Shown in pieces: positions 362-58,600 of a stretch of DNA of 64,000 bases. The notes under the pieces are model-generated. The model saw only the letters and a list, made by a program, of their open reading frames with translations. It had not been told where the DNA came from and did no database searches. The DNA lies in contig NC_087250.1 of the NCBI RefSeq assembly GCF_037042905.1, positions 15,874,001 through 15,938,000 of the forward strand, in the 5' to 3' direction. Source of the stretch: Lytechinus pictus. Lineage: Eukaryota. Within the stretch, counting starts at the first letter, position 1; every line of letters begins with the position of its first letter. A program made the position numbers and the translations under genes.

Positions 362-2683
362 ATAAAAATCAAAGGTAAATTGGGATAATTTAAAACAAGA
401 GCTCGAAGAAATCAACTGGGATAATGTATTATTGTCCACTGATTGTCAAATTGCTTGTGATAACTTTTATCAAACCATTTTGAAATTAATAGACAAATAT
501 GCACCAGCTAAGAAACATCGAATCAAGAATAAAGTATCCCCCTGGATGACACCTGAATTGTTGAATTTAATAAGAGACAGAAATGAATTAAAACTAAAAG
601 CAAGGAAATCTCGGAATCATGAAGATTGGTCTGCGTATAAAGCACTCAGGAACAAAATAACAATGCATATTCGTCAACGCAAACGCGAATATATTGCATC
701 ATCCATTGATGAAAATAAGGGAGATCAGAGTTCAATGTGGGCTTCCCTTAAGTTTCTATTACCAAGTAAACACACAAACACTATTATAAACTCAGTTAAA
801 GTAAATAATAGTAATTATATAACAAATCCTAAAGAAATTGTAAACGCGTTTAATAATCAACGCAGGTAAGGAAGTACAGCATGAGATACCACATACTGAG
901 AAGTCTGCATTAGATTATTTGACAGGAATAAACACTTCTTTTGAATTTCATGAAGTAACAACCCAGAAGGTAAAAGATCTATTTAAAAAATTGCCGAAGG
1001 GAAAGGGATGTGGACCAGATAACATTACTGCTGAATTTATTCATGAAGTACTTCCTTACATAGTCTCACCAATGCACCATGTTGTAAATCTTTCTTTAAA
1101 AACTGGAAATGTGCCACAGCAATGGAAAGTTTCAAAAGTGACGCCTATCTTTAAAAAGGGAAATAAGGAAGAGATGGCAAATTATAGACCGATTTCTCTT
1201 ATGTCTGTGTTAGCAAAGGTTATCGAAAAAATAGCTTTTGAACAAATGTATAAATATGTAACTAGTAATAATATCTTAGTTGAGAATCAATCGGGTTTTC
1301 GGCCCCAAAATTCTACCCACACGACAGTCTTAAACCTCACAGAAGATGTTTTAAAGAATATTGATGAGGGATTACTTACTGGATTGATTATGTTAGACTT
1401 GAAAAAGGCGTTTGACAGTATTGTGCATAAGATTCTCCTTGATAAATTACACTATATTGGTATACGAGGTGTCAACCTCAATTGGTTTAAGTCATATTTA
1501 TCCTCCCGATCTCAATACGTTTATATGAATGGTGTCAACTCAGATTATGCTACCGTTGAATGTGGCATACCCCAAGGTTCAGTGCTTGGACCATTGCTAT
1601 TCTCTCTCTACATAAATGACATTGGTAAAGTAATTAAAAATTCTAAATTATCTCTTTATGCTGATGATACATGCAATTATTTCAGTTCCAAAAATGCTAC
1701 TGATATAAAATCTGAATTGGAGAGTGATCTCCAAGCAGTATCAGAGTGGCTTGCATGTAACAAATTAAAGTTGAATATAGCTAAATGCGAATTTGTTCTT
1801 ATTGGTACCCGAAATCGTATACACAAAGTTGATAATGATATAACTGTATCCTTGAATGGCGAATTGCTAAAAAGAGTTACTAAAACAAAATATCTTGGAG
1901 TTGTAATAGATGAATTCCTAGATTGGGGAGCTCATATCAGTCATATGAAATCCAAGATAGCTAAATGTATGTATCTTTTGAAAAGAATTAGACCTTATAT
2001 ATCGCAAAATGACAAAGTCACTGAAAGACTTAGAATGAGAAAGATAATGCTAATTCACAAAATTTTGTATGGAGCTGTTCCAGAATATATAAGTAGACGA
2101 TTTAACTATCAAATATATTACTATAGAACCCGCAAATCGGCTTATAGTCTTTGCATCCCCAAAGTAAAAACAAATTATGGGAAAAGGCGATTAGAATATA
2201 GAGGTGCAATTGCCTGGAATAATCTTACAAATGACTTGAAAGGAATAAGGTCCACCTTCAGCTTCAGATCACAACTAAGACTCCATTTAAATGAAGCTAC
2301 CATTACGAATGTGCTTTGATTAAAGCTTTAATCAGACATATTGATGAGATTTATATAATGATTTCACTTGGAAAGGGCGGGGAAACACAAGGGGAATAAG
2401 GAATACCGATATGTATATTTTTAGTTGTATACCTAAGTCCAAGATAACTGAATTTTGATAATTCATATCCAACTTGCACTCTGTAATGTTAATCTATCCA
2501 CTTTAGTTGTTTGTATCTGTGTATTATTGTTATTTTTTAATGAATTAGTTTGTTTGCTTAAAAAACTATGATCATTTTGTGTGTTGAATATTGTATATTG
2601 TATCACGGCCCCTTTGTAAAACAGCTATGCTGAATGGGCTTTTAACCGTGGTGAAATAAATAAATGAAATGTAATTAAATGAA
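362..2683 (+). mobile_element. CR1/L2-group LINE, decayed ORF2 (reverse transcriptase) with 3' UTR
   Basis: YRPISL, QSGFRP, DLKKAFD, GIPQGSVLGPLLF and YADD in ORF 919-2319; frameshift near 860; AATAAA/TGAAA-type tail at ~2656-2683. Confidence 0.93.
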
Positions 2684-16194: not shown

Positions 16195-19100
16195 GTAAGT
16201 ATAACACACAGGGAGTGGATTATGTGCTCCCGTTTTGTCCAGTGTTGTGTGCGCCTCAATGACGACTTGCTTGCTTGAATACTCCCCAGGGAGTGGATGA
16301 TGTACATATTGGTGTATATATCCAGTGTTGTGTGTGCATCAATGACGACTTGCTTGCTTGAATACTCTCCAGGGAGTGGATGATGTACATACTGGTGTAT
16401 ATATCCAGTGTTGTGTGCGCATTAATGACGACTTGCTTGCTTGAATACTCCCCAGGGAGTGGATGATGTACATACTGGTGTATATATCCAGTGTTGTGTG
16501 TGCATTAATGACGACTTGCTTGCTTGAATACTCTCCAGGGAGTGGATGATGTACATACTGGTGTATCCAGTGTTGTGTGCGCCTCAATGACGAATACTCC
16601 CCATGAGTGGATGATGTACATACGTTGTGTGCGGGAATGACTGATTGGATTCAAAGACCGGGGTAATAAATGATTTGTAAGCGCTTAGGTAGGCGTACGC
16701 CATTATAAATAATGAAACTATTGATAGGCCTATTATAAATCAAATTGGTTCAGTCCCCGTTTTGGTATCATTGTAAATAGTCTATTCATTTTCCGCTTCC
16801 GAGGTTTAAGTTGCCTCCCTTGAATCTCTTGTCCGTTATCCTCATTTGTTTCCCTCATATTGTATTTCTTAAACACTTGTAGGCTTATATACATGGACAG
16901 CAATATCAAATGAGCCTATATTTTTAAATGATAATTGAGGGGACGTATCAAAAGACATTTGCTTAACCCTTTCCACGCGTAGGCCTACTTCCCACAAATG
17001 CACGCTCGGTGCCGTGCGAGCATTCCACGTTCAAACAAATAATCCATTTTATTTATCCTTCGGTTCCATAATAATACCATCTGTGAAATTAGATTTTACC
17101 CATTTCTGAAAAAGCTTGTGATATCCTCTACAACTTTACTTGAATCATTTCCCCCTCAAAATGTTGCAGTGAAAGGTTATAGGGAGTTGAATTGAGCAAG
17201 TCCACTTTGTTTAAAGCTCCTTATACCTCACTGAAATTCAGCAGAGAGGGCGCATCAGTAGGTCGAATACTTTAGCCGACGTATCGAGTCTGGCTCATTT
17301 TGGGCTCTTAACTATTTCAAGTGTTGAGAGTCGGATATGAACCCAGGATCCACTCAATTACTAGTACCTAGTACCCACTGGTCGTGTAGTCTAGTGGTTA
17401 GAGCATACTCGTAATCGCAAGGTTGTGAGTTCGAATCCCAAACTCTTCCAGTGTCTCCACTTTAATAAAAAGAACCGAGAATAATTGAAATATCTGTCGT
17501 TTACAAGGTCATCGTGGAGCAATCGCAGTGATCTTTTCAGATCGTATAACAGATCATATCGGATCAGTCGTGGCAAAGGGAAAAGGGATACCAGGTACTT
17601 CACTCAGTTAATGGAATCCAACAAAAAGAAAGCAAATATACGTAAATTATCAATAAGAGATAGAATAACTTTTGATCAAAATGATATAAAAAATGAAATG
17701 AGGAACTTTTATAGCATGTTATATGCAAAGAGAGACGATAAGATCCTTGATGATGACTTTTTCTCCGATGTAACCAATTTATCAGACGAATCGATGAAAT
17801 CATGTGAAGGGAAAATTACGGAAGGTGAATGTTTAGCTCCCTTAAAAGGAATGAAGTTAAATAAATCACCGGGTAATGACGGGCATATAAATAATAACGT
17901 AGAATTTTATTTAGTGTTCTGGCCGCTGATTGGGGATGTTTTAGTTGATGCTTTAAATAATGCTTTTATAAGAGGAGAACTTTCGCCATCACAAAGACAA
18001 GCAATTATTACTTTAATTCATAAAGAAGGAAAGGATCCATTATATATTAAAAATTATCGGCCCATCTCACTGTTAAATGTAGACTACAAGATTTTGGCGA
18101 AGGTACTTTCAACAAGAATAAAGGAGGTGTTGCATGAAATAATCAATGTCGACCAAGTAGGATATTTAAAAGGAAGGAATATTGGGGAAGCTATTAGACT
18201 TATAGATGACATAATCTTTCACTCGGTAAAAAATGATATATCGGCATATCTATTGGCCATTGATTTTGAAAAGGCATTTTATTCGGTTTCACATTGTTTT
18301 TTATTTAAAGTAATTGCAAAGTTTTGGTTTTGGACCCTCATTTTGTAAATGGATAAGTACTTTGTATAAAAAAGCTGAAAGTTGTGTTTTTAATGGCAGT
18401 ATTTCAACAGGTTACTTTGATATAGGGAGAGGGGTAAGACAAGGAGATCCGTTATCCCCCTATCTTTTTATTTTATATATTGAAATTTTGGCTAACAGAA
18501 TAAGACTTGATCCAGAAATTCACGGAATTAAGTTTGGGAATACAGAAGTTAAGCAAATTTTATACGCAGATGATATGACAATTTTTGTAAAAGACACTTA
18601 GTCGATTGAAAAGTTAGATATGCTGTTTGAATGTTTTTCCGAAACGTCAGGGTTGAGGATGAATAAAGATAAAACCTTTATTATGTTACTGGGACACCAT
18701 GGAAAAATAGATCAAATTTTACCTTTTGGTAAAGTGGAGCAGATGGTTAGGATCTTAGGTGTATATTTTTCATTAGATAGAGAAAGTCAAGTAAGAATAA
18801 ATTAAAAAGAAATACTTAGTAGAATAAAGAAAATTTTGATGTGGTGGAAGCAAAGGGATTTGACATTAATGGACAAAATTCAGCTAATTAAAACATTCCT
18901 ACTATACTATCTAAATTGATAAACGTTTCTTCTCTTACCCTTGTCCCTACATGGGTAATAGAGGATGTTAATACATTGATCTTTGGATTTTTATGGGGTG
19001 GTAAAGATAAAATTAAAAGAGACATTGTTTATTTAGATTATGAGAATGCTGGTCTAAAAATGACAGATTTTCAGTTATTTATTAAGACACAAAGAATTAT

Positions 19101-22100
19101 GTGGATTAAAAGACTTATAATGGGAGAGCCAAAAATGAAATGGAAACAATATTTCAGATACTTAGCACACGGTATGGGAGGATTGCTAATTTGTTATAGT
19201 AACCTCACAATGAATTTGATAGGATTTGAACTGCCTGAATTTTATACAGAAATGTTAGATGTATGGTTTAATAAGAAATTCTTTTTACTTAAAGACGAGA
19301 AGAATAAAAGAAATGAGATCATTTCAATAATAGGTTCATCCGTTTCAAAGGACAAACATATTTTAATGAAAAGCTGTTTTTGAAGAATATTTATAAACTC
19401 TATCATATTGTAGATAAAGATGGGAAGATGAAGTCTATCTCGACCTTTCAAAAAATGGGTTTGAATCGTTTTGAAAAAGAAAAGATATACTCAAAATTTT
19501 TAACATTCCATACTTTTGGAAGGACTCGCTAAAAAAAGAGGGTCAAAGTTCCATAGATAGTGAGTTAATTTTGGATTTTCAATTGAAGGGCAGGATTTTT
19601 GACTTGCAAGACATCACATCATAAAGAATATATGATACTCTTGTAAGTATGAAAACTGATATACCCCAAGCATTTAAAAGGCTTGAGGAAAAATATAATA
19701 TAACAAAAATACATATTTCTGATATTTTTCTAAGACCACGAAAATCCACTCTGAACAGTAGACTCAGATAATTTCAATATAAAATATTACAGAATATACT
19801 GTACACAAAAAAATATTTATATTTATTTAAAATGACAACAGATGATTTATGTTCATTCTGCAGTAAAGAAGAAGAAACATATGATCATATATTTTTTCAT
19901 GTGATAAGATAAAAACTATATGGAAAGAATGTGGGAACATGCTTCAACTCCCTATTATCATGATTATTACAAATATAGATCAAAAAGGTGTTCACGTAGG
20001 CGTGGAAGGTTCAACTAGAGGAGAGGCTCAATTATTAAATCACATAATAATCCTAATAAAGTATATGATTTTAAAAAATAGTAGAAACACAAAATTTCCA
20101 CCGACTCTTAACCATATTAAGGAAAAAATACAAGAAGATAGACTAGAAGAAAGAAAACTAGCTGAACAGAGAGGTCTATTAACAAACCATTTCAGAAAAT
20201 GGGACAAGTTTATTTTCTAGAGATGCTGGGGGCAAAGAAAGTTCAAGCATACAGTTATCATGGTTATTAAACACTCAAAATGCGAGGGAGATGGTCTGGT
20301 CCGTATTGTCGCACCCCTCCTGGAGCGGGTCGGAGCAGTCATTTTGGGGTGGTCTTTGTGTCTTTGGTTCCTTCTGAAGTGAACATAGAAAAATAATAAT
20401 ATGTATAAAAAATAACAATACGCTGTTTCGCTCCAGAGGGAGCTAGAGCGCGCTCTCGGGGATATGGATCCCGCTTCTGAAGAGACTAGTCTCTTATCTC
20501 TCTCTGGGGGGGGGGGGGGGGGGTGATTGGGGGCCGGAGTGGCTCTTTTGCATTTGGAGTGAAGATTCAGGTGCGCAAGTTAGATCTTGGTTGCGGCACA
20601 GCACAGAATGCAGATTGAAATGGTGGGTAGTTGGGGTTTAGGGGAGGGAAGCAGGCCGCGCTTCCTGGGCTTGGATGGGATGGGGGGGGGGGGGGCAGTT
20701 GGGATGGGAGGGTGTTTTACTTCTGTTACTCATTCAGTTCAATTGCGTCGCTATAAATTCTTTTTTTGTCATATTTGTATTTTTTTCCTACAGACTAAAG
20801 TATCTACTTTGTTCTAAATGATTTGAATGTTATATTCTCTATTTTTTTGTACAATTTTTTTGTATTATGAATTATTATTTATTTGACTTTGTGAACAGTG
20901 TTACTTGTATGATTTTGAACTGAATGAGTTTAATAAATACTATTACAAAAAAAAATCGTATTGATCGTAGAGAAAATTTTGAATGGTTCAACCTTCAGTT
21001 ATGAAATCGTAGCTTTCGTAAAGGATCGCGCACAGTGGGAACGAGGTGTAGGATCCAACCCGTGGCTTGATGGAAAAATTATGGTTCCTCATTCAAGGGG
21101 AGTCCGACTCGCCTAAAAAAAAAAAAAAAAATCAAATACCGAAAAAAAAAACAGATATGGGTGAAAGAGCCTTAAAGGCATGGTCCGGGCTAAAAATATT
21201 TAAATGTAAATAAATAGAATAAAATTCACAGAGCAAAATGCTGAAAATATCATCAAAGTCGGATGACAAATAACGAAATTATTGAAATTTTAAGTTTACC
21301 AATATTTTGTGAAACAGTAAATGTGCACATCGTCATGAATATTCATTTGGTGGGCTGATGATTTCACGTCCCCACTTTCCCTTTTCTTATCTTATTACAT
21401 GATATCATAAATATTTTATTTTGTTTCATACATAATTATGTAAATGATGTGTCTCCATTATGATGAAATAAGTTGCGGAAACTTAATCAGTTGTCAATCC
21501 AATTGTTTTAGTTATTGGTATAAAATTTTTGAATACACCTAATTTAATATAATAAAATACAAAAGAACAAGTGGGGATATGACATTATCAGCCCACCTAA
21601 TGAATATTCATAAAGACATGCATAGAACTGTTTCACCGGAATAATGCAAATGTTTAAAATTCAATGAACTTCGTTATTTGTTATCCGATTTTGATCAAAT
21701 TTTCAGCATTTTGCTTTGTGAATTTTACTCTATTTATTGAGATATAAATATCTCCAGCCTGGACCATCCCTTTACATTTCAATATTATAAGCAGAGTATG
21801 GCCAGGCCGCTTTTCTCCAGCAATTTTATGCCTTGAACCTAACTATTTTCATGGAAAAATTTGATTATTTTTTTTATTTTGAGAACCGATAGATGCACTG
21901 AATATTGTTGAAGTGGATAGGAATATCAAACCAAGCTACAATACGATGTTGATGGCTGGATGACAAAATTATTTCCCTCCCAATTTCATCAATGTCGTAT
22001 AATTATTGTTCAATTGTTATTATTTTTAGCATTATTATGAGCAGTACGCGATTTTTTATTGCAATATTTTTTTTCGGTTTATAACCCGCCCTTTTACCAA

Positions 22101-30700: not shown

Positions 30701-33202
30701 CCCATAGGCCATGTACTTTATTATCAGGGATTTGTGGTTTTCTCCTAAGTACACATTCCCCTGGGGCATCTAAATATAACCCAGGTAGTATATTGTTTTA
30801 TGTCCTCATGAAAGAAAGATACCACCTTTTGGGAAAAATGACATTTTAGCCATAATATGTATTGGAGTACATGGGAGAGTAGTCCTTGCCTTACAAGTTA
30901 TATCACTATGCCATCCCATATGCGGCCAATTTGAAGTCTCCATGGCATGGGTATAGTGATTACCAATATTTACAACTTTAAAAAAATTATATCTTTCTTG
31001 TTGTTTGTCCAATATTGTTCAAACTTGTCTGATTTTTCTTTTCCTTACAAAAACAAGTTTTTATTTGGGTTGGATTCCCCTTTAATGAGTTGAGGACATT
31101 TTTAAAAGGCAAGATGGCTGTGTCCGCAGCACAATGGCAATGCACTCATGCCTAGCCTGGCCAGGCTCCTGGAGAGTAAAAATCAGTCTACTATACCATT
31201 GCTCTCAATATACCGTAGGTTTTCCCATGGTGAAACTAGACCTAAAATCTAAATCACACATTTTACTTATCGTTTTGAGCCCAAACTAACGAGGGCCAAA
31301 ACAATATTTACCCCCCTCATTTGATAACGGTGCGTCTATATTTATTTTAAAAATAGTAGTAAATTTGAAAAATAATTAATAGCACGAGCGTTTACTTACC
31401 CAGTCTGTTATCATCGCCATCTTGCCGTCTTTATCCTTACCTAGATACCACACGCATGTATAGAGGGCGACAATATCATGAGCAGTGCCAACTTAGATAA
31501 AAAAAAACTTGCATCGGCCCAAGTCTGCATCGGCCGATAAATATCATGAATCGTCAAATACATGTACTTGCATTGGTTGATAAATATAAAGATCGCTTTA
31601 TGATGTTTATCGACCGATGCAAGTATTTTATTAGTAGGCCTGCACTGTCCCACATGCTTATCTGTGTTAGTTATCATCAGAATTATCAGTTTTGAGCTAA
31701 GATTTCATGATTTCACAATAATAAGTTTGCATAAATGTACCAGTTCTAGATCAATTAACCTTGAATCTTAAGACTTTCTTATGAACGAAATAATTGTTTG
31801 CTGCAACTACTTTCTTATACCTTTAACAGCTCAATAATAGGGCACTTAAGTACCGTGTCAAGTCAAGTGTGACGTTTGAAGTGAAGGAATATGGTGAGTA
31901 AACATTTATTTGCTTGTATTTAAGGACAGCTCATTTCGGAATAACTTCCATATGCGACCAGCCACCCCAAAATCAACAATAATTCTGTAGTCACATTTCC
32001 TTTACTAGTAGACTTGTTAACTGCAAAAAAAGGGATGAACGCTGCATTTTTTAGTACAAATGTCCCACTTGGCACAAATGTTCCTTGAGTCAAAAGAAAA
32101 GGATTCATCCAAAGAGACACGCTGTATCTATGCAAATAAGCAAGTAATTTGTATAAATTTGCATATTATGTCGATATAGTAAAAACAAGTATTTCAGAAT
32201 ATATTTTTAACCAGAACTGCCCTAAAATTGGAAATAAAGACTTAGGGTAAGAAAGGGAAGAACATTGTCATAAAGTAATTGGGATATCCTTGTTTATTAT
32301 TACCTAATTTACATAAATTATGCAAATTATAATTTAAAACAGAGTATTTTTTCATGAATCCTGAACTGCTTTTAAAAAACAGCAACTAATACACAATGTC
32401 AACATTTTACATGAAAGAGAATATATTAGCGAAAACATCGATATGCTTCATGACAGTATTAGTGTCTTAATTTGCTTAGAAAGAGGGCAAATATGTCCAA
32501 ATGTATGACGTGATATTGCGCTAAAACGAGACCAAAACAATCTCTATGTCACAGTCACACTCACGAATCAGACAATAAAGCGATCAATGGTATGTCATTC
32601 GAGATAACACAATCTCAACACAATAGCTTCCATCGGCTTCTCGTATCACTTTTGTTGGTGTGTCTGCCACACCGTAATCTATGATACATACGGACAAAAT
32701 GCATTTCGGTATCGGTAAAACACTATTAATTTTGTTTTATTTGTTTCTCTTGGAAAATTTTCAGGAGACATTGCTTTGCAGGTTACTGCTTTAATGAAAC
32801 TCTGGCACATGAATCATGACGAATGTACCCTACCTCAATCCATATTTTAACTTTATTAATATATATATCTTTTTGGAGACCCCGAAGTGGCAAAACTGCA
32901 TTCCCCGCGGCATTCCCGCTACTTTACAAAACCAGTTTGACTTGTATTATCGACTTGGAAAAGACAGATGTATGAGACATCAGTTAACATGTTTCCAGAA
33001 GATAGTTTTTTTTATTTAAGCCTACGTCCATGGGAGCCCTTCGAATTTACCCCATCCCCTCTCTGTATTTCGACACTAAATAAAACAAAAAAATATCGTG
33101 TTTTAAAGCCACCGGCAAGGCAAATTGCGTTTTTGGTATAATAAAGCAACTTTTATATCTATATTTCATATTTATCTATATTATTATTATCATTATCATT
33201 AA

Positions 33203-33236
<34 letters not shown>

Positions 33237-34577
33237 GTTATTATTATTATTATTGTTGTTGTTTTGCAGTTTGTAATAATGCTCTAGCACAGTAAAGGCT
33301 ATAACCCAACAGGAGCATGCCTAGGATACCCTTTCCCCTTTTGGTTTTATGTATTCAAAAATAGTTTATTGTCTTTAGAACTCATATCTTGGAATAGATT
33401 GAGGTGAAAATACTCTACAATTGACATGTAGAAGAGCTGTGGTACATTGAAGAAAAGCCACACGTAAGCTCTAAAATACCCCTTTATTGATTCCACTCTA
33501 TGTTAAATTTAAATATTTTTAGAGTCCATTCGGAAGAAAGATACATTTCTACTACACACAGTAAAGCCTCTTTACTTTCTCCTCTTAAAAAAAAAAAACA
33601 TAGAAGTCATTGTTTTATATCGCATAAAATAAGTTCGTGTACATGACGGTGGCCTGTCGAAGTTGCCCAACCCTTTATTTTGTTTTGACAATATGTATTT
33701 TGAATATCGTCTAAATGAAGCCCTCATCTGGAAAAGGGCACTTATTAAAGGCAGCATCTACATTATATAGAGGAGGCCCTGGTACTTGGAAGCGGGGGCT
33801 GAAGCACCCGCAAGATTTTTCTGAAGGGGGGGGGGGGCTGTGCTGCGTGTGTTATTCTCCATAGACAGCACCCCCTGGAATTCCGGCAGATGTGACAAAA
33901 CGAAAAAAAGAAACGTTACCAAACAAAAAAACTTCATTTTGTAGTGCAATCCATTTTGTTTATTTGCTTGTTAAATTTCTTGATGTAAATTTGAAAAGCA
34001 AAAAAGTTTCAATGTAAAATTTTGGTCCGAAGAAATTTAACAAGCTTCAGCCCCCTCTTCCCAGTGCCAGGGCCTCCTCTGTATAATGTAGATGCTGCCT
34101 TTAATAAGTGCCCTTTTCCAGATGAGGGTTTCATTTAGACGATATTCTAAATATATATTGTCAAAACAAAATAAACGGTTGGGCATCTTCGACACGAACT
34201 TATTTTATGAGATATAAAACAATGCCTTCTATGTTTTTGTTTTTTTTCAAGAGGAGAATGCAAAGAGGCTTTACTTTGTGTAGTAGAAATGCATCTTTCT
34301 TCCGATTGGGCTCTAAAAATATTTAAATCTAACATAGAGTGGAATCAATAAAGGGCTATGTGGCTGTTCTTCAATGTACCACAGCTCCTCTACATGTCAG
34401 TTGTAGAGTATTTTCTCCTCAATCTATTCCAAGATATCAATACAAACAAAAGTAATCTTTTAAGAGTTCTAAAGACAATAAACTATTTTTTAATACATAA
34501 AACCAAAAAGGGAGAGGGTATCCTCCTGTTGGGTTATAGCCTTTACTGTGCTAGAGCACTATTACAAATGGCAGAAC

Positions 34578-34611
<34 letters not shown>

Positions 34612-37600
34612 GTAATAATAATAATAATAATAATAATATTAATAATAATTATAATAATATCAATAATGATGAATGTAAATATAAAAATATAGATATAAAA
34701 GTTGATTTATTATACCAAAAAACCCAATGTGCCTTGCCGATGGTTTTAAAACACGATATTTTTTTATCTAAAGTCGAAATACGGAGAGGGGATGGGGTAA
34801 ATTCGGAGGGCTCCCGTGGGCGTAGGCTTAAATAAACAAAAAAAACTTTCTTCATGAAACATGTTGACTGATGTCTCATACATCTGTCTTTTCCAAGTCG
34901 ATTATACAAGTCAAACTGGTTTTGTAAAGTGGCGGGAATGCAGGGGGATGCAGTTTTGCCACCTCGGGGTCTCCAAAAAGATATATATATTAATAAAGTT
35001 AAAATATGGATTGAGGTAGGGTACATTCGTCATGATTCATGTGCCAGAGTTTCATTAAAGCAGTAACCTGCAAAGCAATGTCTCCTGAAAATTTTCCAAG
35101 AGAAACAAATAAAACAAAATTAATAGTGTTTTACCGATACCAAAATGCATTTTGTCCGTATGTATCATAGATTACGGTGTGGCAGACACACCAACAAAAG
35201 TGATACGAGAAGCCGATGGAAGCTATTGTGTTGAGATTGTGTTATCTCGATTGACATACCATTGATCGCTTTATTGTCTGATTCGTGAGTGTGACTGTGA
35301 CATAGAGATTGTTTTGGTCTCGTTTTAGCGCAATATCACGTCATACATTTGGACATATTTGCCCTCTTTCTAAGCAAATTAAGACACTAATACTGTCATG
35401 AAGCATATCGATGTTTTCGCTAATATATTCTCTTTCATGTAAAATGTTGACATTGTGTATTAGTTGCTGTTTTTTAAAAGCAGTTCAGGATTCATGAAAA
35501 AATACTCTGTTTTAAATTATAATTTGCATAATTTATGTAAATTAGGTAATAATAAACAAGGATATCCCAATTAATTTATGACAATGTTCTTCCCTTTCTT
35601 ACCCTAAGTCTTTATTTCCAATTTTAGGGCAGTTCTGGTTAAATATATATTCTGAAATACTTGTTTTTACTATATCGACATAATATGCAAATTTATGCAA
35701 ATTACTTGCTTATTTGCATAGATACAGCGTGTCTCTTTGGATGAATCCTTTTCTTTTGACTCAAGGAACATTTGTGCCAAGTGGGACATTTGTACTAAAA
35801 AATGCAGCGTTCAACCTCTTAACAAGTCTACTATACGTTGGCCATACGGCGAGTCAAAATCAGCCGTTTTAACATTTTTGTACCAGTAGGAGTGGGCTAT
35901 ACATGGGTCAAAAATACTTTTTTTGTCATTTTAATATGGCAACAGTTTTTATTTATTCCTTGTAATGTATCTCAACATGAAATGACAATATTTTTTGTCT
36001 CGGGTCCGAGAAAAAAGTGTGCCGGGCCAAAATCCAAAATGGCCGCCAAAACCCCTCCCCAAATCACGGTTTTGGCCACAACTTCTTTATTTTTTTGTCT
36101 TTTTCTCTGGTTTTGGTGTCTATTAATATGTTTTTGGGGTAGGCAATTTTTTTTACCTAAAATTAGTACTTAAAAAAACCATTATTTGTAGAGTTAAAAG
36201 GTGATTTTACTTAAATTTACAAATTTTTAGACCCTTTTTCAGCCAAAAATTAGGTTTCATCGTTTTGTGGTTCTTGGGTATTGGACGATACGAGTTCCAC
36301 AATAGCAAGTAGTTTCATATAGCTATATTGCTCTTAATCCTCTACTTTGTGTTTTACGGATATTTGCGAAATATATCTTATTAAATAAAAAAAATGTCAT
36401 TTATCCATAGGGGCTATATACAGTATAGTACAATGTATTGTATACTGCACTGCATACACGTACATGTCCTTGCATTGACCACCGTCTGTAGGATATATAG
36501 TGTCATTGAAATGAGCTCTTGAATTAGATGCCTCAGAAATTGAAGATACTGTATTTTTTGTCCCAGAAATTGAAGACATGTTTTGTCAAATATGCTCATG
36601 CAGGGCGGAGAGAGAAAAATATCATTAACGATGGATTACGGTCAACCCCACATTATGGCATTTACACTGTGGCTATTCTGTTACCATTATGGTAACCTTG
36701 CCATCCCATATTGTAACTTGCATGGAATCTTGGATTCTGATTGGTCATTGATCAGCATTACTATGGTAGTTACCTAACCCCATAAACACAGGGTTAGCCA
36801 CCACAACCAGGTAAAAACAAGCCTCCAAATGAAGAAAGTATGGCTAAAAATGTGATGTACGTACTGTACATGATGTTTATGTGCAATTTATGTTTATCAT
36901 CAGGTTACATCATGTACATGTACATCAGCTAACAAGCAATCAAATTTACAAGTGACAATCTAATTCTAAACCTCAGGAGCTCACTTCTATGACACGATAG
37001 TTTATAATATATACAGGACTTGTTATATGCCATGGTGGTCAATGCATGGATATAGGTATGTACAAAACATTGTAGCCCCTATGGATAAATGACATTTTTT
37101 CATTTAATAATATATTTTTCGCAAATATCCGTGAAACACAATTTAGAGTAATAAAAGCAAGATAGCTATATGAAGCTGCATCATACTTCTCAACTGGTAT
37201 CGTTTAATATCCAAGAACCATGAGACAATGAAACCTAATTTTTGCTGAAAAAAAGGGTCTAATAATGGGTAAATTTAAGTAAAATCACCTTTTAACTCTA
37301 TTACAAATAATGGTTTAAAAGTACTAATTTTAGGAAAAACAAATTGCCTGCCCCCCAAAACATATGAATAGACACCAAAACCAGAGAAAAAGACCACTAA
37401 ATAAAGAAGTTGTGGCCAAAACTGTGATTTCGGGGGGTTCCTTCTTCTTCTTCAGGTTAAATCTGCCTCCTTCAGGATTGAAGATTCTTGCAGATGGTTT
37501 ATTTGGCATGTGTGTATGGCCAGGTTTAGGTGTGCAGTGCAAAATATATACAGGTGCAAGTAAAAAGTCCCATCTGATTTAGCTCTGGCCTTCCGCCAGT

Positions 37601-40600
37601 CTTGCAGGCGGAAGGCTTTTGGAGAAGAGGCATTGATTTCGTTGGGAGGAATAGTATTCCATGCCTTGATCGTCCTCGGAAAGAAGGATTGACAATGGTG
37701 CTCTGTCCTGCAGTGTGGTAGCTGGTAGCCGTTCCCTTGTTGCTGCGATCGAGTTCTTGTTGATCCAGTGAGTGGGGTGATGTATTCTTCCACTGGGAAG
37801 CTGACAAGATTGTGGTGCAGCTTGTACATAAGGACCAGTCTAGAATCCTCCCTTCGTTTCTGCAGTGAGGGCCATTCCAGTTCTTCAAGCATAGATGTAA
37901 CGCTAGAGGTGTTGTGGTATCTGTTAAGCACAAATCTAGCTGCCCGCCTTTGGATCATCTCAATCTGGTGGATAAGACGATTGGTTGATGGATCCCATAT
38001 CGAAGAACAGTATTCAACGAGAGGCCGTACTAGTACTTTGTTTTGGCGGCCATTTTGGATTTTGGCCTGGCACACTTTTTTCATGTTGAGATAAGGTAAA
38101 AGGAATGCAAAAAAACTGTTGCCACAGTAAAAACCAAAAATCACCAATTTATAGCCCACTCCTAGTACCAGCTACATAATAGGTGTTTTTAATAAAAAAT
38201 GAACAAAATGGCTGTTTTCGACTCGCTGTACGGCCATCGTATAGGGGAAACTGCAGTACGAGCCACCAGAATATGCTCTCTGTATTAAAGTCGTCAGAAT
38301 AATAATATGGCTTTCAAAACATTTTTTTTTAAATTTGCTTAAAGCTCTAAAAGTGAAAGAGTGATTCATCTTCATACTGCCAAAATTTCAAGTTCTAATG
38401 TGTGATAAGATACAAGATACGCATGCTTCTGTGACACTATGGCCCAAATTCACAAAGGTGGTTTTGAAAACCCACGGTTGAGTCCATGGTTTAGGCAGAT
38501 TTCCTGTATAAATTACGCTTAATTTAGCGCGTATCGGGCGCGTGTATAAAAAATGTCCAATGCTGATGCGCGCTTTTGTCACAGTGCGTCAAATTGACGC
38601 CTGTTACCATGGTTAGATACGCTTTTTTATTCACGAGTCCACTGTGTGAAGAATAGACTCATCAATTCAAAACAGTGGATTCATGAATAAAATAGCGTAG
38701 ATAACCACGGCAACAGGTGTCAATGTGGTGCAATGTAACAAAAGCGCGCATCAGCATTGGACATTTTTTTAAATATACGCGGTAAAAAAAGCGTAATTTT
38801 TACAGGAAATCTGCATAAACCATGGACTCAACCGTGGGTTTTCAAAACCACCTTTGTGAATTTGGGCCTAATTGTCTTGAAATTCAATGGTCGCCATTTT
38901 CCTTGCTCTTTTTCTACATTCAAGAGAGTGGAAAAAACAGTATGATTCTAATCCCTCACAATTTCTCCCTTTTTTTTCTTCATGTCTTGATTTCCTTGGC
39001 TACAGTTCTACCCACATTTTCAGTGAAGGTCGAAACACCTGCGTACATATTAGACGGGGCCGATTCAGTGGTTTCAACAATAAATGCTCAGTAAGTGACA
39101 GTTTTGCTGTGAGCCAGTCGGACGCAAGGATTTCAGGAGCTTATAAAAAATATCGGAAAAAAAATCAGTGATCATTTGTTTCATGATATTCTCCCCTAAT
39201 GTTTTTACAGATATCGGTATTTGTCTTTCTGAGTGATAGTGAATTTCATTGTAAATGATAAAATATAAATGTGGGGGACGATTTTGAGCAGAAAAAAATC
39301 CAAACAAATATCTTTACTGTCCTTGTGGTTTCATAAAGCTGTATGTAAGTTATGCGAACTTTATGAACGACTCACTGTTGATCCTTTAATAGTTCGCTAC
39401 GAAAACATCACCAGTCATTTTTATAGCCACTTGTACCCATCAGGTGGGTGTTTCATAAGGCTGTCAGTAAGAGCGACTTTAAGAACGACTGGTGATCCTT
39501 TCTTGTGGTTAATAGTAAGCACCAAAGCGTTCATTGGCGATGGTTTAGCGCATAAGAAAGGATCACCAGTCGCTCCTAACTTATGAAACAGCCCCCAAGA
39601 CGGTTTTATGAAAGATTTTAGATGCCTGAGGGTTTATACTGAGGGTTTGCAGTTATAGGCGGGTATCCAGCATCAGATCCTACAAAGCATTTCATGGGCC
39701 CTATTGTATGGGGACAATAGAGACTGTTATTATAATGAGCCCCATTGAAGTCAATGTATTATTGGCCTGGTTCTAAATGTTTATAGGAACCAGGCCAATA
39801 ACACATTTACTTCAGTGGGGCTAATTATCTATTCATGAGGTCATATCTCAGGCCCCAATGAACTAATTCTCACCAGATTTTGATCATTTTCATCATGCTC
39901 TACCAGAATATTGTATCCAAAATGCAAAAATTGAAAATTGATGACGTCACACTTCGGTACTCTATCAATTTTTCCTACAGGAAATTTGCACAATATCCCT
40001 TAAAATAAAGCTCTTTGTGATGTCATCACATTAGTTGGTACTCTAATGTTCAGGTTGATTGGATCAATCACAACTCTTTGGAAGACCAAACCCATTATAG
40101 GCCTAGTGTTGTGTGTACCATAATGAACAGCTTCATGAAAATACCGTCAAAGCCAGGCTCTATGAGGATGAGAAATCAAATAACGATCTCTTCATTATTT
40201 ACCCCCTTCCCCCCCCCCTCCATGCAGGTATGTGTTCGGTAAGCCTGTGATTGGACGTTATGTCTTCAAGTATGGTATCCTTCAAGATGATGGATCTGTG
40301 GAAGAACTAGGAGAGAGAAATGGACATGTGAGTCAATTACCGTGTTTACACGCTGCATCGGCTCGCAGTTCAGAACTTAGAGCCGATGCAGAATCGGCTT
40401 TTTTGTTGCGTGTAAACGCGATTAACTTGCATCGGCTCTCGGTTCAGAATCTGCAATTTTGCACCACCAAAGTAGTAGGTTCAGAACCGGGAGCCGATGC
40501 AGAATCGGCTCTTTTACTACGTGTATTAGCCGATTCTGCATCGGCAATTGGCACGCATTTCATTTACTTTACCATTATGACGTACTTCAAAGCGCACGTA

Positions 40601-52600: not shown

Positions 52601-55600
52601 TCTAGTTCATAAAACATAGACATAAGAGTAACCAAGTATCACTGAACATCTTGTGCAAGTTATAGTAGTTTCAAAGTCGGCCTTGCTGGTATATTGAATC
52701 GCGTGATGCAGGTGAGACCCCCAGAGGCATTCCACTTGTTTATTTTTTTTATTGAACTTTTGCAGTTATGAATAGCATAAAGTAAATCAATGTAGATTCC
52801 CCTACAGGCAGGATGGTTGCAGTGAGCAAGTGCCTTTATTTATGGTTTTTCGTGGCGTGTTCTGATCATTTTTTTCATTGGTGATTTAGGTTGGTAGGAA
52901 TACTGAATTCCTGATCCAGAGGGTTGGTTCATCAGGAGTGCCTCCAAACACAAATCTTCATTATTTGGTAAGTTACTATATTCAGTTCCTTTTCATTTTT
53001 TTTTTCCATTCAAAATTAATAAAAAACAGTAAGTAACTTCGAAGAACAAAGTCTTATGGAATGCTGCCCTCGAAATATAAAAATAAAAGTAACCCCCCAA
53101 AAAAAAATATGAAAAGAGTGCATATTTCAAGTAAGTCCAGGTAAGTAAGTAAATCCAGGATTTTCTAAGGGGGGGGGGGCACATTTTCTCAAGGAAAAAT
53201 TTTACCAAAAAAAATAAGTAGATCTAGGCCTATCTACATTTCATCCACAAAAAAATTGACAAGCAAAAAAAAATGTCCTCACTTTAAAAAAGGGTGCACA
53301 CTTGTGTTTTAACGGCATTTTTATATTACAAATTTTAATTGTGCCTCTCAAAAGGATCGCCCGAGGATCCGCCAGTGATATACAAATAAGATAAATTGAA
53401 CATTCATAACATATCATGCAAAACTATATATACATGATTAATACAAGACTGGGATGGAGAGATTTCCCTATGTGTAATCAACCGCATATATTCGTAATTC
53501 GAAGCTTCGTTATTATGAAGGTTCGGATATTCCGAAGGTTTTTTATTCCGATGGTTCGTGTTTCCAAAGGTTTGTAATTCCGAAGGTTCGTTAGTCCGAA
53601 AACGAAATGAGGTTCGTAATTCCGAAGGTTCGTTAGTCCGAAAACGAAGTGAGGCTCGTAATTCCGAAGGTTCTTTAATCTGAAAACAAGATGACGTTCG
53701 TAATTCCGAAGGTTCGTTAGTCCGAAAACGAAATGATTAACGAACCTTATTTCGTTTTCGGACCAAGGAACCTTCAGAATAACGAACATCATTTTGTTTT
53801 CGGATTAACGAAGCTGCGGAACATTGAGCCTTATTTCGTTTTCGGATTATCGTACCTTCGGAATAACGAACCTTCGGGATAACGCCACAAATGTTCGGAT
53901 TAACGAACCCTTTTACGTTTTCGGATTAACGAAAATCAAGGTATAGGCAATTTACGTGTTTCGGAATTACGAACCTTCGGAGCAAAGAACCTTTGGAATT
54001 ACGAACCTTCGGAATTACGAAGTGTAGCCGTAAGCAATAATAATAATTGATTATTGGACTATATTACATAAAATTGCATCTACTTGTAGAAAAGGAATAG
54101 CATTTTACGTGTGTGAAGATATAAATAATATGATGTTGTAATTTCAATATTTTACCAATCTAGAGTGCCATTAACATTTTTTTTGTGGGAAACGCTGTAT
54201 TACATATATATTTTTTCTGTATTGTCCTTTGTAATTATTTAGGAGATTCTTACGATCAAAGTATTTATTTTGTACTATGCTTTATATTCTGATGTATAGT
54301 AACTTTCTACTGAAATGATGTCATTAACATTTTTTATGTATGAATGTGGATATTAAAGTCCCAAGCTACATTATGATTAATATTGGCAGTGCAATGTGCT
54401 GGGCCATTCCTTTGAAACTTCCAAAAGACATCCGCAATATTTCTTGTCTTACTACCTTCAAAAATTTACTAAAAACCTGGTTACTCACACAAGTTTTCTA
54501 GTGCTACTCTTTTCTCTCTTTAGTAAATTTTTATTCTTTACTGCACCATGAACAGCTCATTATGGATACTGCCATATTACACATTACCATATCATTATTA
54601 TCATTATAAATTATAAATATTATCATTATAATTATTATTGTTATTTTTACTGTTATTATTATTATTATTATGAATATTATTATTATCATTGTTATGAATA
54701 TAATTATTAGCATTATTATTATCGTTGTTATGAATATTATTATGAATATTTTTATTATCATTATTGTGAATATTGTTATTATAATAATTGTTATCATTGT
54801 TATCATTATTATCATTATTATGAATATTATGAATATTATTATCATCATCATTGTTATTATTGCTATTATTATTATTTTACTTGAACAGTGCATTACAGGG
54901 GGAAGGATTGTCGAAAGCAATTTTCAACCTGGCATGCCTGATGTAGGCACATCCCTTCAAATAACGATCACGTCCGACATGGCGCCACAAATGAGATTAA
55001 TCGTCTACTACATGACTGCCACCGGCAGAGTCATCGCCGACTCCCTTCGACTTGGTGTAGAAGAAAAGTGCAGGCAAAATCCTCCGGTGAGTATGTACCC
55101 TAGATGAATTTACTTTCACTCCTTAAAAGCATTCAGCTATCTACTGTACCTCGTCATCTCTCGCCTTGTAATCAGAGGGGTGTTGATTCAAATCCCCGCC
55201 AAAAATCAGATGAGGTTTTCAATCAGGGGCGCGCTCCATAAAGAATTACAACTGTTGTAACTTTGCCATTATGGCAAATACCATGGAAAGAGGGCTCAGC
55301 AGCCAATCAAAATCAAGGTTGCCATGGTAGTTGCCATAATGGCAAAGTTAAAGAGTTGCAACTCTTTGGCCCAAATTCACAAAGGTGGTTTTGAAAACCC
55401 ACTGTTGAGTACATGGTTTATGCAGATTTCCTGTATAAATTACGCTTATTCTAGCACGTATACAAAAAAGTCCAATGCTGATGCGCACTTTTGTCACAGT
55501 GCGCCAAATTGACACCTGTTACCATGGTTAGATACGCTATTTTATTCATGAGTCCACTGTTTGAAGAGTGGACTCATGAATAAAATAGTGTGTATATATT

Positions 55601-58600
55601 GATCAATAAGATTACGCGTTACATACGCATTGGCAGTTAAGTGCGACTCTAAGTCATACTTAGCTCTACATGTATGTGAAACACCCCCCTGGTTTGATCT
55701 TTCTCATTGATTTTTTTAGGGTAACATTTTTCTGGGCTGGACCTTGCCTATAATACTGAAAATTCACTTTGTCTTTAAGCCAAATTATGTCTTATTATTT
55801 ATATTTTTGATTCCCTTTGTAGCTATCATTTAGAATGCTTTTTGAGCGACCTCTAATACTTTCACTTTCAGCCAAAATATATCTTGTTTGTTATTTATAT
55901 TTTTGATTCCCTTTGTAGCTAACATTGAGAATACTCCCTGAGCTAGCTAGCTACCTCCTATAATGATTTCACTTTCAGCCAAAGTATGTCTTGTTTGTTA
56001 TTTATATTTTTGATTCCCTTTGTAGCTAACATTGAGGATACTCCCTGAGCTAGCTACCTCATATAATGCTTTCACTTTTAGCCAAAGTATATCTTGTATG
56101 TTATTTATATTTTTGATTCCCTTTGTAGCTATCATTGAGAATACTTCATAAGCTAATTCCTATAATACTTTCAGGGTACATCTTTTTTGTTATTTATATT
56201 TTTGATTCCCTTTGTAGCTATCATTTCACTTTTAGCCAAAGTATATCTTGTTTGTTATGTATATTTTTGATTCACTTTGTAGCTCTCATTGAGAGAAGTT
56301 CTTGAGCTAGCTACCTCCTATAATGCTTTCACTTTTAGCCAAAGTATATCTCGTTATTTATATTTTTTATTCACTTTGTAGCTCTCATTGAGAATACTCC
56401 CTGAGCTAGCTACCTCCTATAATGCTTTCACTTTTAGCCAAAGTACATGTACATCTAGTTTGTTATTTATATTTTTGATTCCTTCTGTAGCTATCATTGA
56501 GAATACTACCCGAGCCACCCCCTCCTCTACTTTCTATCTATGACCCACATTCCATGATTGAGGTTGAAATCACAGCACCAAACGATTCCTCCATCGGTCT
56601 GCTAGCTGTCGATAAGGCTGTCTATCTGCTGAGAGATAAGGATAGAATGAACAATCGAAAAGTAAGTCAGTCGGTTACAGGGGCGGATCCAGGATTTTCC
56701 AAAGGGGGAGGGGGACAAATTTTGACAAGCCCCCCTCCCCCCCAAAAAAAGTTTTCAACCACAAATTAAGGATATTTCGGACCCGAAAAAAATTGACAAG
56801 CAAAAAAAATAAAATAAAATAAGGTCTTCAATTTCAACAGTGGGGGCACACCTCTGTTTTAATGGCATTTTTACATTACAAATTTTAATTTTGCTTCTCA
56901 AAAGGGGGACACGTGCCCCCTGGATCCGTGCCTGGTCGGTAGTTGGTAGTTGCCATAATGGCAAAGTTACAACAGTTGCAAGTCCTTTATGAAACGGGCC
57001 CCAGGTTTTCAGTAATTATTACGGAAAAATGAGAAAGAATACCGGTGGTCTCATGCAAAATACTGATTTTTAAAGTTTCATTTTATGTGTTGTCCTATGG
57101 TATTTCTGTGAAAGTACTGATTTTCTTACCAAAATACTGATTTTCAGCATTTACAATACTGAAATATATGATCTTGATCAGGTGACCCCTATAGAGAGTT
57201 ACGAAGTAGTACTGGTTTTCAGAAATTATTACGGAAAAATGAGAAAGAATACTGGTGTTTTCATGCAAATTACTGATTTTTAAAGTTTCAGTTTATGTGT
57301 TGTCCTATGGTATTTCTGCGAAAATTTTTGAGGGGAGGCTGAATCACCCCCTTCCCCCCTCTTAAGATTAAATACCGGACTACGGGGGTGGCCAGATTCA
57401 CCCTACAGACATCACCCTCACCCCTCCACTTTACTGTGTTCATCAGTGCATCTTCCTCCATCAACCCACCCTCCTACCCTCCACCACCACTTGGTTCATC
57501 CTGGGTGGCGTTTCATGAAAGGACTTGTCAGACGTTTAATCCGACAAGTCCCATTTTATCCGACAGTTACTATAGGAACAGTACCTCTCAGCCAATCAGA
57601 ATCAAGGAAAGATGTCAGATCTGAAAACTTGTCTGACGAAAATGTTGATGAAACGCTCCCAGGAGCGTTTCATCAACATTTTCGTCCGATATGAAACGCC
57701 CCCCAGGTCTCCTTGGGTCGCCTGAAAGGTTTTTCTTTACGTTGGCCCGAGTAGCTATGATTTTTAAGAACAGGGGCTTGTTTCATCAAACTTTTTATCA
57801 TAAGAAAATTACAATAATAGTTAAGAAGCTACTGAAATCCTTCAATCTGATTGGCTTATAGTAAATTTGTTATAGAAATTGTGCATTTGTTACTATAACA
57901 AGTCTGTAACAAGTCTTTATGAACAGAGAGCTCGAGACTGAAACTTTCTTTTAACAGTCTATTGCAGATTTGCCTACAATCTCTTCATATTTTTGGTCTC
58001 ATCCGTTATATCCTTCGTCTACATTGATCGTGCACTAATCTTTTGGTCTAATTGTTTTCAATTTTGCTTGATTTCCAGTTGGCTAGCACCATTTCTTGCA
58101 ACATCTACTTTTAAAAGTCTCTATGCTTGGATAGGATGTTTTCTATATTTACTTAATTTTCATTTGACAATTAAAACATTACAAGTTGAAAAAGAGGAAA
58201 ATTGACAAACTGGGCTAGCTTACAAGTAAATGAGAAATAGTCCAAGTGGGTTAAGGCTAAGAGTACACTTAGACCAAAATGAGAGACCAAATGGGTTAAG
58301 CCCTGTTACAGCGACGCATAATGTTACAGTCAACGCACAATGTCGTAGGTTTTCTACTAACACATGACGTCGCAAGTCTCAACACATAATGTCGCAGTAT
58401 ATCTTGGTCTGAAATTCCTGAGTTAAATCATGGTTATAATGTATGTTGTTATTGTTGTTTTTCAGATGTATAATAGGATGAAGAGCTATGACACCGGTTG
58501 TGGACCAGGAGGCGGATTTGATACTTCTCAAATTTTTAAGGTAACATAAGAGTTACAAGTCATAAATCACAGTACACAGTTTCACATTCCACGGTTTTTG

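What the first reader, a model, noticed from the sequence alone, without database searches (positions are those of the whole stretch)
55764..56661. Minisatellite made from a live 3' splice site: seven decoy acceptors before C3 exon 14
Seen: the repeat unit carries the pyrimidine tract, TGTAG and the first ~25 nt of exon 14 (CTATCATTGAGAATACT..., LSLRILPE). The eighth unit is the real junction. By my translation, use of any upstream AG gives a frameshift (offsets 109, 208, 362, 572, 668 nt) or an early stop (offsets 273, 465 nt). Inference: the array grew out of the intron/exon boundary, so the spliceosome must skip seven near-equal acceptors. It could act as a copy-number-variable dial on unproductive splicing or yield truncated beta-chain products of an immune gene.
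Basis: partly seen in the sequence, partly recalled or inferred. Interest (0 to 1): 0.72.

Follow-up and report, generated by a model that had tools for sequence, protein, structure and literature searches.

The report
Repeated splice acceptor in urchin C3
An intron of a sea-urchin complement C3 gene holds seven tandem copies of the next exon's splice junction, but the RNA seen here uses only the last, real copy, so it is most likely a tolerated duplication of a kind already described in lancelets ("mirage"), not a shown immune dial.

Summary
Observation confirmed. Intron 13 of Lytechinus pictus C3-like ends in eight ~100-nt units, each about 55 nt of intron end plus up to ~44 nt of exon 14. 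Seven decoy AGs score like the real one, and each leads to a premature stop.

The dial reading is not supported. A spliced contig (depth 169) and 2 raw reads join exon 13 to the last AG. That run has no depth on the bases every decoy transcript must cross. These data are shallow and NMD was not blocked.

A related species (~91% identical) has the same array with four units. Its terminal acceptor ends in the same 12 nt as decoys 6 and 7 here. So the array is old and changes in copy number, and position rather than acceptor sequence probably picks the site (exon definition: 171 nt versus 280-839 nt). A derived hairpin buries the nearest decoy AG; its role is unproven.

This is a "mirage" minisatellite as described in amphioxus; human CBS 844ins68 and F7 intron 7 are parallels. 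The scan noted the same pattern before, at seven other loci of this genome and in two other genomes. New member of a known kind; low interest.

The parts
54889..55086 (+). C3-like coding exon 13 (198 nt; A2M_BRD domain); donor GT at 55087
   Evidence: spliced contig X1 record 1
55087..56490 (+). Intron 13 (1404 nt, GT..AG); 5' half holds dispersed repeats, 3' half the array
   Evidence: joint skipping 1404 nt in X22 and X1, and depth table
55767..55861 (+). Unit 1 (left boundary unit), decoy AG ends 55822
   Evidence: also in organism B contig
55862..55967 (+). Unit 2, decoy AG ends 55918; a donor-like GT at 55984 downstream could bound a 65-nt stop-containing pseudo-exon
55968..56070 (+). Unit 3, decoy AG ends 56025 (96% identical to unit 2); its AG falls in the stretch missing from the organism B contig
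56071..56167 (+). Unit 4, decoy AG ends 56128 (first 17 nt identical to exon 14); in the stretch missing from organism B
56168..56224 (+). Unit 5 (short; 8 nt of exon), decoy AG ends 56217; in the stretch missing from organism B
   Evidence: an identical 136-nt contig 56197-56332 in run X1
56225..56327 (+). Unit 6, decoy AG ends 56282; its AG falls in the stretch missing from organism B
56328..56426 (+). Unit 7, nearest decoy AG ends 56381 (would give a 280-nt exon); AG buried in a predicted local hairpin
56427..56490 (+). Intronic part of unit 8: the authentic 3' splice site
   Evidence: joints
56491..56661 (+). C3-like coding exon 14 (171 nt, phase 0/0); first ~44 nt are the source of the exon-like part of the units; donor GT at 56662
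   Evidence: X1 contig and 4 X23 reads join it to exon 15

Best explanation
A tolerated 'mirage' minisatellite. A local tandem duplication copied about 55 nt of intron end plus about 44 nt of exon 14 (shown by homology). Slippage or unequal exchange then expanded and contracted it (inferred; 8 units here, 4 in a relative). Only the last copy is followed by the complete exon and its donor. With 1.4- and 1.8-kb flanking introns the exon is probably recognised across its length, so the AG nearest the exon-14 donor wins: 171 nt, against 280-839 nt for decoys and 53-243 nt for the gene's internal exons (inferred, not tested). A derived hairpin over decoys 3 and 7 may help. Rare errors would carry premature stops and probably be removed by NMD (inferred). 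Arrays in which an upstream AG won would be null alleles and purged, so 'last copy used' is partly a survivorship pattern.
For: Exon 13 joins the last AG in a 551-nt exon 13-14-15 contig at depth 168.8 (X1) and in 2 raw reads (X22; up to 25 nt on the exon-14 side, enough to tell it from decoys). X1 depth is 0 at 56440, 56476, 56477, 56482, 56483 and 56485, and about 2 at most listed positions inside the array. Sense-strand raw depth is 0 in all five bins from 55755 to 56379 in X22 and X23. Acceptor score, branch-like motifs and AG-free zone do not single out the real site. In organism B the terminal acceptor, by the listed differences, ends in the same 12 nt as window decoys 6 and 7, so that sequence is probably competent when it stands last (table 3). 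Listed cross-species differences are no rarer in decoy cores (6 of 84 nt) than in the rest of the array (18 of 244 nt), p=1.0. The unit looks single-locus: organism-B DNA depth is 0-94 over the array against 10^4-10^6 on flanking dispersed repeats. Precedent: amphioxus mirages do not disturb splicing (PMC3087553; PMC3902484); in CBS 844ins68 the distal copy is strongly favoured (PMC2630376).
Against: RNA evidence is thin: 2 raw junction reads (0 in X23), contigs drop rare forms, 487 joints were hidden, no NMD block, tissue and challenge state unknown. X1 array depth is not zero (bin means 1.3-15.8). Decoy acceptor cores are more uniform within the species than the rest of the unit (3 of 28 versus 32 of 64 variable columns; scan-corrected p=0.007), though this falls to p=0.12 and 0.74 in two subsets. 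The array has lasted through ~9% sequence divergence. Exon definition was not tested. The F7 paper notes that gamma-globin splice-site duplications used only the proximal copy while another group found the opposite, so no simple rule is guaranteed. Splicing at the terminal acceptor of organism B was not observed; it is inferred.
Confidence: 0.76

Rival explanations
1. Constitutive leak: a few percent of transcripts use decoy 7 (280-nt exon) or the 65-nt unit-2 pseudo-exon and are destroyed by NMD; measurable, but unregulated and without function.
For: Decoys score as well as the real site, and a GT at 55984 scores 7.7, inside the 5.4-10.3 range of the 16 true donors. X1 has low depth in the array. 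All such products carry stops at least 120 nt before the next junction.
Against: X1 depth is 0 at 56440-56485. The listed array contig (56197-56332, depth 2) runs unspliced through decoy AGs 5 and 6, as pre-mRNA or DNA would. No joint at 55919 or 55983 is among the 15 listed.
Confidence: 0.11
2. Regulated, copy-number-dependent dial: array length or immune challenge shifts C3 pre-mRNA to decoys (NMD) or to in-frame skipping of the symmetric exon 14, tuning C3 output.
For: Copy number differs between species. Exon 14 skipping would be in frame. The human ABCA7 VNTR scales exon 19 skipping with length (PMC5954066). Decoy cores are uniform within the species.
Against: No decoy joint or exon 13-15 joint among the 15 listed. 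No cross-species conservation of decoy cores; core uniformity is not robust. Published mirages at several amphioxus genes are reported as silent. In ABCA7 the cryptic-site events themselves did not vary with VNTR size.
Confidence: 0.06
3. Structure-led silencing: decoys are silenced mainly by a derived hairpin in which a motif in the exon-like part pairs back over the decoy AG, selected to protect C3.
For: Local fold (-15..+40): decoys -4.4 to -13.3 kcal/mol, real site -3.1, the weakest of 8. Unit 7 z=-3.8, 0 of 200 shuffles. The AGs of units 3 and 7 are paired in all 6 settings.
Against: The real AG is also mostly predicted paired (G unpaired 0.01-0.31). Decoys 1, 2 and 6 open up in some settings. 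Random mutation of the real junction gives a buried AG at -8.4 or stronger in 8-12% and -12 or stronger in 1-4% of 1500 trials per setting. 4 of 15 true acceptors of the gene are as buried. The whole array folds no better than shuffles (z=0.08). Organism B lacks two of the bases that extend the unit-7 stem.
Confidence: 0.05
4. Assembly artefact: the array is a mis-assembled duplication of the junction.
For: Tandem arrays are error-prone in assembly; no single record spans all eight units.
Against: Units are 68-96% identical, not copies. A contig of run X1 matches 56197-56332 with 0 differences, and organism B carries the array.
Confidence: 0.02

Closest known systems
Amphioxus 'mirage' minisatellites (Adh3, globins BflGb6/BflGb9, troponin C, PGBD5). 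PMC3087553 and PMC3902484 read as passages; Canestro et al. 2002 known only through these citing papers (not held)
   Same: Tandem copies of the intron 3' end plus the start of the next exon (as in BflGb6); units 81-100% alike there and 68-96% here; splice signals kept; copy number varies (6 versus 3 between haplotypes there); boundary units partly excluded from homogenisation; mRNA spliced normally.
   Different: Echinoderm host and an immune gene; ~100-nt unit; copy-number difference seen between species, not yet between haplotypes; somatic instability not tested.
Human CBS c.844_845ins68 (PMC2630376, passages; Romano et al. 2002 known only as a citation there)
   Same: Duplication of an intron/exon acceptor junction; the distal copy is strongly favoured and the upstream partial exon is spliced out, giving normal mRNA.
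   Different: One extra copy of 68 bp, a human polymorphism that masks a mutation; here seven diverged copies shared with another species.
Human F7 intron 7 37-bp VNTR (PMC1557585, abstract and Discussion)
   Same: Minisatellite born from a splice junction; pseudo-sites are functional yet silent because of position; the copy adjoining the full exon is used.
   Different: Donor side; pseudo-sites identical; mechanism tested by mutation there, only inferred here.
Human ABCA7 intron 18 VNTR (PMC5954066, abstract and section 21)
   Same: Precedent for a length-dependent splicing effect of an intronic VNTR on a neighbouring in-frame exon.
   Different: There exon skipping was measured and scales with length; here no skipping or decoy use was seen and length variation among individuals is unmeasured.

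Membership tests
Mirage minisatellite | Head-to-tail tandem repeats whose unit spans an intron-exon boundary of the host gene | tested here: met
Mirage minisatellite | Terminal unit is the authentic junction; other units keep AG/GT signals | tested here: met
   8 of 8 units keep TGTAG; the last is the annotated and observed junction
Mirage minisatellite | Regular splicing is not disturbed | tested here: met
   dominant form only: contig at depth 168.8 and 2 raw reads; rare forms not excluded
Mirage minisatellite | Length instability (copy number varies) | tested here: inconclusive
   4 units in one short-read contig of organism B versus 8 here; collapse of units in that contig is possible; no data among individuals
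Mirage minisatellite | Local origin, unit not dispersed in the genome | tested here: inconclusive
   only 8 sites in the window and low depth over the array in 4 runs; no whole genome held
Mirage minisatellite | Somatic instability (reported for Adh3) | not testable with these tools
   needs single-molecule DNA from one animal
Splicing-regulatory VNTR (ABCA7 type) | Alternative junctions or exon skipping detectable in RNA | tested here: not met
   none among 15 listed joints, 487 hidden; X1 depth 0 at 56440-56485; low power
Splicing-regulatory VNTR (ABCA7 type) | Isoform or expression level scales with array length | not testable with these tools
   needs matched genotypes and RNA
Poison exon / regulated AS-NMD element | Alternative form carries a premature stop upstream of a later junction | tested here: met
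   7 of 7 decoys and 5 of 5 cassette options tried; potential only
Poison exon / regulated AS-NMD element | Above-background conservation across species | tested here: not met
   6 of 84 versus 18 of 244 listed differences; only 29 of 52 substitutions of that contig were shown, and unit orthology is uncertain
Complement C3 gene (host) | C3-like protein with macroglobulin domains, tetra-arginine site and GCGEQ thioester motif | tested here: met
   window exons equal P0001 1-703; Pfam hits; RRRR and GCGEQ are in P0001, the latter beyond the window

The most novel reading that the evidence does not exclude
The array has been kept across a species split as a tunable element of an innate-immune gene: in challenged coelomocytes, melting of the unit-7 hairpin or longer alleles divert C3 pre-mRNA to a decoy (NMD) or to in-frame loss of exon 14, so that copy number sets C3 output. 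It would be the first mirage with a function.
Probability: 0.06. Interest if true: 0.7.

Novelty: new member of a known kind. Interest (0 to 1): 0.24.

Why it matters
As it stands, it is one more mirage. Its use is as a natural experiment in 3' splice-site choice: seven equal-scoring acceptors are passed over, and a relative seems to use at the terminal position the 12 nt that are a decoy here, which points to position over sequence. The cross-species copy shows such arrays can last and turn over. My searches found no printed echinoderm case, so the class may be unreported in sea urchins, but that is a genome-wide point, not special to this locus. If the array tuned C3, it would link minisatellite turnover to immune dosage.

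Tried and rejected
Genome-wide search for the unit: no whole genome is held; replaced by depth. No indexed holder was on record as RNA; no inference drawn. Raw runs X22 and X23 (about 6% of each read) had too little C3 to bound leakage; 4 of the 24 listed runs were laid. Better intrinsic strength of the real acceptor: rejected (PWM from the gene's 15 other acceptors, branch-like motifs, AG-free zone; a small home-made matrix). Global structure of the array: z=0.08. Selection on decoy cores: not robust. Rfam: 0 matches in 54800-57000. Other mirages in this gene: 1 hit, this one, among the 32 junctions screened within 4 kb at up to 5 mismatches in 24 nt. The 83-bp repeat in intron 1 does not include the exon-1 donor (score 16 versus shuffle mean 16). 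Look-alike notes in other genomes: none. Papers: Canestro 2002 not held; the search for Reed and Maniatis duplication experiments gave 1 unrelated listing, so that work is recalled only and not used as evidence; two searches gave nothing relevant by title; one search listed 20 of 68 papers, none on C3 splicing by title. No supplements were read; the mirage alignments in those of PMC3087553 might refine the comparison.

Full report
Identity and gene model. The exon upstream of the array matches a 1725-aa protein at 100%, named complement C3-like of Lytechinus pictus (P0001). An exact spliced translation places 17 coding exons in the window, residues 1-703. Exon 13 is 54889-55086, intron 13 is 1404 nt, exon 14 is 56491-56661 (171 nt, phase 0 at both ends) and intron 14 is 1804 nt.

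The observation. The unit is about 55 nt of intron end plus about 44 nt of exon 14; unit 5 keeps only 8 exon bases. Units are 68-96% identical, with units 2 and 3 the closest pair. The 38-nt junction occurs at 8 sites in the window, all in the array, and no shuffle of 100 comes closer than 12 mismatches. A short shared stretch near the left array edge and near exon position +40 is compatible with a microhomology-guided first duplication (read by eye, not tested). On a matrix built from the gene's 15 other acceptors, decoys score 11.0-12.7 bits and the real site 11.1; at most 0.23% of 2207 other intronic AGs score as high. Branch-like motifs and AG-free zones (35-45 nt versus 30 nt) do not favour the real site. 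Each of the 7 decoys leads to a stop after 5-58 codons, at least 120 nt before the exon-14 donor, and so would be an NMD candidate if the vertebrate rule (recalled) holds in urchins. Such a product would end before the tetra-arginine site and lack the whole alpha chain.

What RNA shows. I laid 4 of 24 listed runs on 54880-58600. Run X1 holds a 551-nt contig at depth 168.8 that joins exon 13, exon 14 and exon 15 at the annotated GT..AG sites. Two raw reads of X22 make the same exon 13-14 joint, the longer with 25 nt on the short side; X23 has none there but 4 reads for exon 14-15. No joint to a decoy, to the possible unit-2 pseudo-exon or straight to exon 15 is among the 15 joints listed; 487 were hidden. 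Any decoy-extended transcript must cross 56440-56485, where X1 depth is 0 at the six positions listed. Inside the array X1 bin means are 1.3-15.8, and the one listed contig there (depth 2, 56197-56332, 0 differences) runs unspliced through decoys 5 and 6. Sense-strand raw depth is 0 in the five array bins of both raw runs. Limits: contigs drop rare forms, two reads bound nothing, and NMD was not blocked. The data show the dominant form, not the absence of leakage.

A relative has the array. In DNA run X6 (organism B, coded; about 91% identical over this stretch, so a close relative, possibly a congener, which I did not establish) one 839-nt contig aligns as 55721-55940 then 56309-56682 with consecutive record positions (table 8). 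The missing 368 nt hold the AGs of units 3-6, leaving three decoys and the terminal site. A short-read contig may have collapsed units, so '4' is provisional. None of the 29 listed substitutions (of 52) hits an AG. By the listed differences, the terminal acceptor of organism B ends in the same 12 nt as window decoys 6 and 7; at positions -8 and -6 it has the state of all seven decoys, so the window's real site carries two changes that did not spread into the array. This fits exclusion of boundary units from homogenisation, as reported for amphioxus, and suggests that the decoy sequence is competent when it stands last. Splicing in organism B was not observed. Depth over the array in X6 is 0-94 against 10^4-10^6 on flanking dispersed repeats, which argues against a dispersed element; no whole genome was held for a direct test.

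Is anything selected? Within the window the 28-nt acceptor core is more uniform among decoys than the rest of the unit (3 of 28 versus 32 of 64 variable columns). After correcting for window choice p=0.007 with all seven decoys, but 0.12 without units 3 and 5 and 0.74 for the five internal full-length units. Between species, decoy cores differ at 6 of 84 nt and the rest at 18 of 244. I read this as homogenisation, not conservation. A second lead: in units 2, 3, 6 and 7 a derived motif in the exon-like part can pair back over the AG. Local folds are -4.4 to -13.3 kcal/mol for decoys and -3.1 for the real site; unit 7, the nearest competitor, is strongest (0 of 200 shuffles). But the real AG is also mostly predicted paired, 4 of 15 true acceptors are as buried, and random mutation gives a comparable stem in 8-12% of trials (1-4% for the strongest). 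It may help; it is not shown to.

Mechanism. Shown: origin from the junction, equal-looking acceptors, dominant use of the last, presence of a shorter array in a relative. Inferred: turnover by slippage or unequal exchange; choice by exon definition, since introns are over 1.4 kb and decoys would make exons of 280-839 nt against 53-243 nt for the gene's 15 internal exons; clean-up of errors by NMD; survivorship of arrays in which the last copy wins. Confidence 0.76. Rivals: unregulated leak 0.11, regulated dial 0.06, hairpin as main silencer 0.05, artefact 0.02.

Comparison with what is known. Earlier scan notes gave me the term 'mirage' and the F7 paper; I checked the papers. PMC3087553 (passages) describes tandem duplications of the intron 3' end and exon start in amphioxus BflGb6, with 6 and 3 units in two haplotypes and no disturbance of splicing. 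PMC3902484 (passage) says the same for Adh, troponin C and PGBD5. PMC2630376 (passages) describes CBS 844ins68, a duplicated intron 7/exon 8 junction in which the distal site is favoured; its text says 'donor', while the paper it cites concerns 3' splice-site selection. PMC1557585 (abstract and Discussion) shows F7 pseudo-sites are functional but silenced by position. PMC5954066 (abstract and section 21) is the precedent for a real dial: exon skipping scales with VNTR length, while cryptic-site use did not. Searches listed no echinoderm mirage and no paper on urchin C3 splicing by title; the library lacks most subscription papers. Unchecked notes of this scan report the same pattern at seven other loci of this genome and in two other genomes.

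Verdict. Real, correctly described, and a new member of a known kind. The cross-species copy and the hairpin lead add modest value as a test bed for acceptor choice. Interest 0.24.

Noticed in passing
P0004 versus window 31894-39005 (intron 6): Another L. pictus C3 model (P0004) carries a 112-aa second copy of exons 2-3 after exon 6; the window has no second copy of those exons. Haplotype or assembly difference.
   Followed up: partly
window 56515-56526 (exon 14 start): P0004 reads Leu and Ala where the window and L. variegatus have Pro. The Leu would match the base carried by most decoy units, hinting at decoy-to-exon conversion or an old polymorphism. The X1 contig has 2 unlisted differences in this exon.
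   Followed up: no
P0001 residues about 932-941 (beyond the window): A 5-residue tandem duplication present in P0001 but not in P0004, P0003 or P0002; could be another small duplication, perhaps at a junction.
   Followed up: no
window 16238-16593: 83-bp minisatellite (4.3 copies) starting just inside intron 1; it shares sequence with 16209-16227 but does not include the exon-1 donor.
   Followed up: yes
window 55919-55983: Decoy 2 plus a donor-like GT at 55984 (score 7.7) outlines a 65-nt stop-containing pseudo-exon; no joint listed for it.
   Followed up: partly
window 55130-55750 and 56670-58000: Dispersed repeats with very high depth in DNA and RNA runs flank the array and exon 14; they inflate word shares.
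   Followed up: no
window 366-2319 (+), 17485-20220 (+), 37452-38171 (-): Open frames that look like broken non-LTR retrotransposon reverse-transcriptase pieces (resemblance recalled, not scanned).
   Followed up: no
window 54590-54876: A 287-nt degenerate TAT microsatellite ends 12 nt before the exon 13 acceptor.
   Followed up: no
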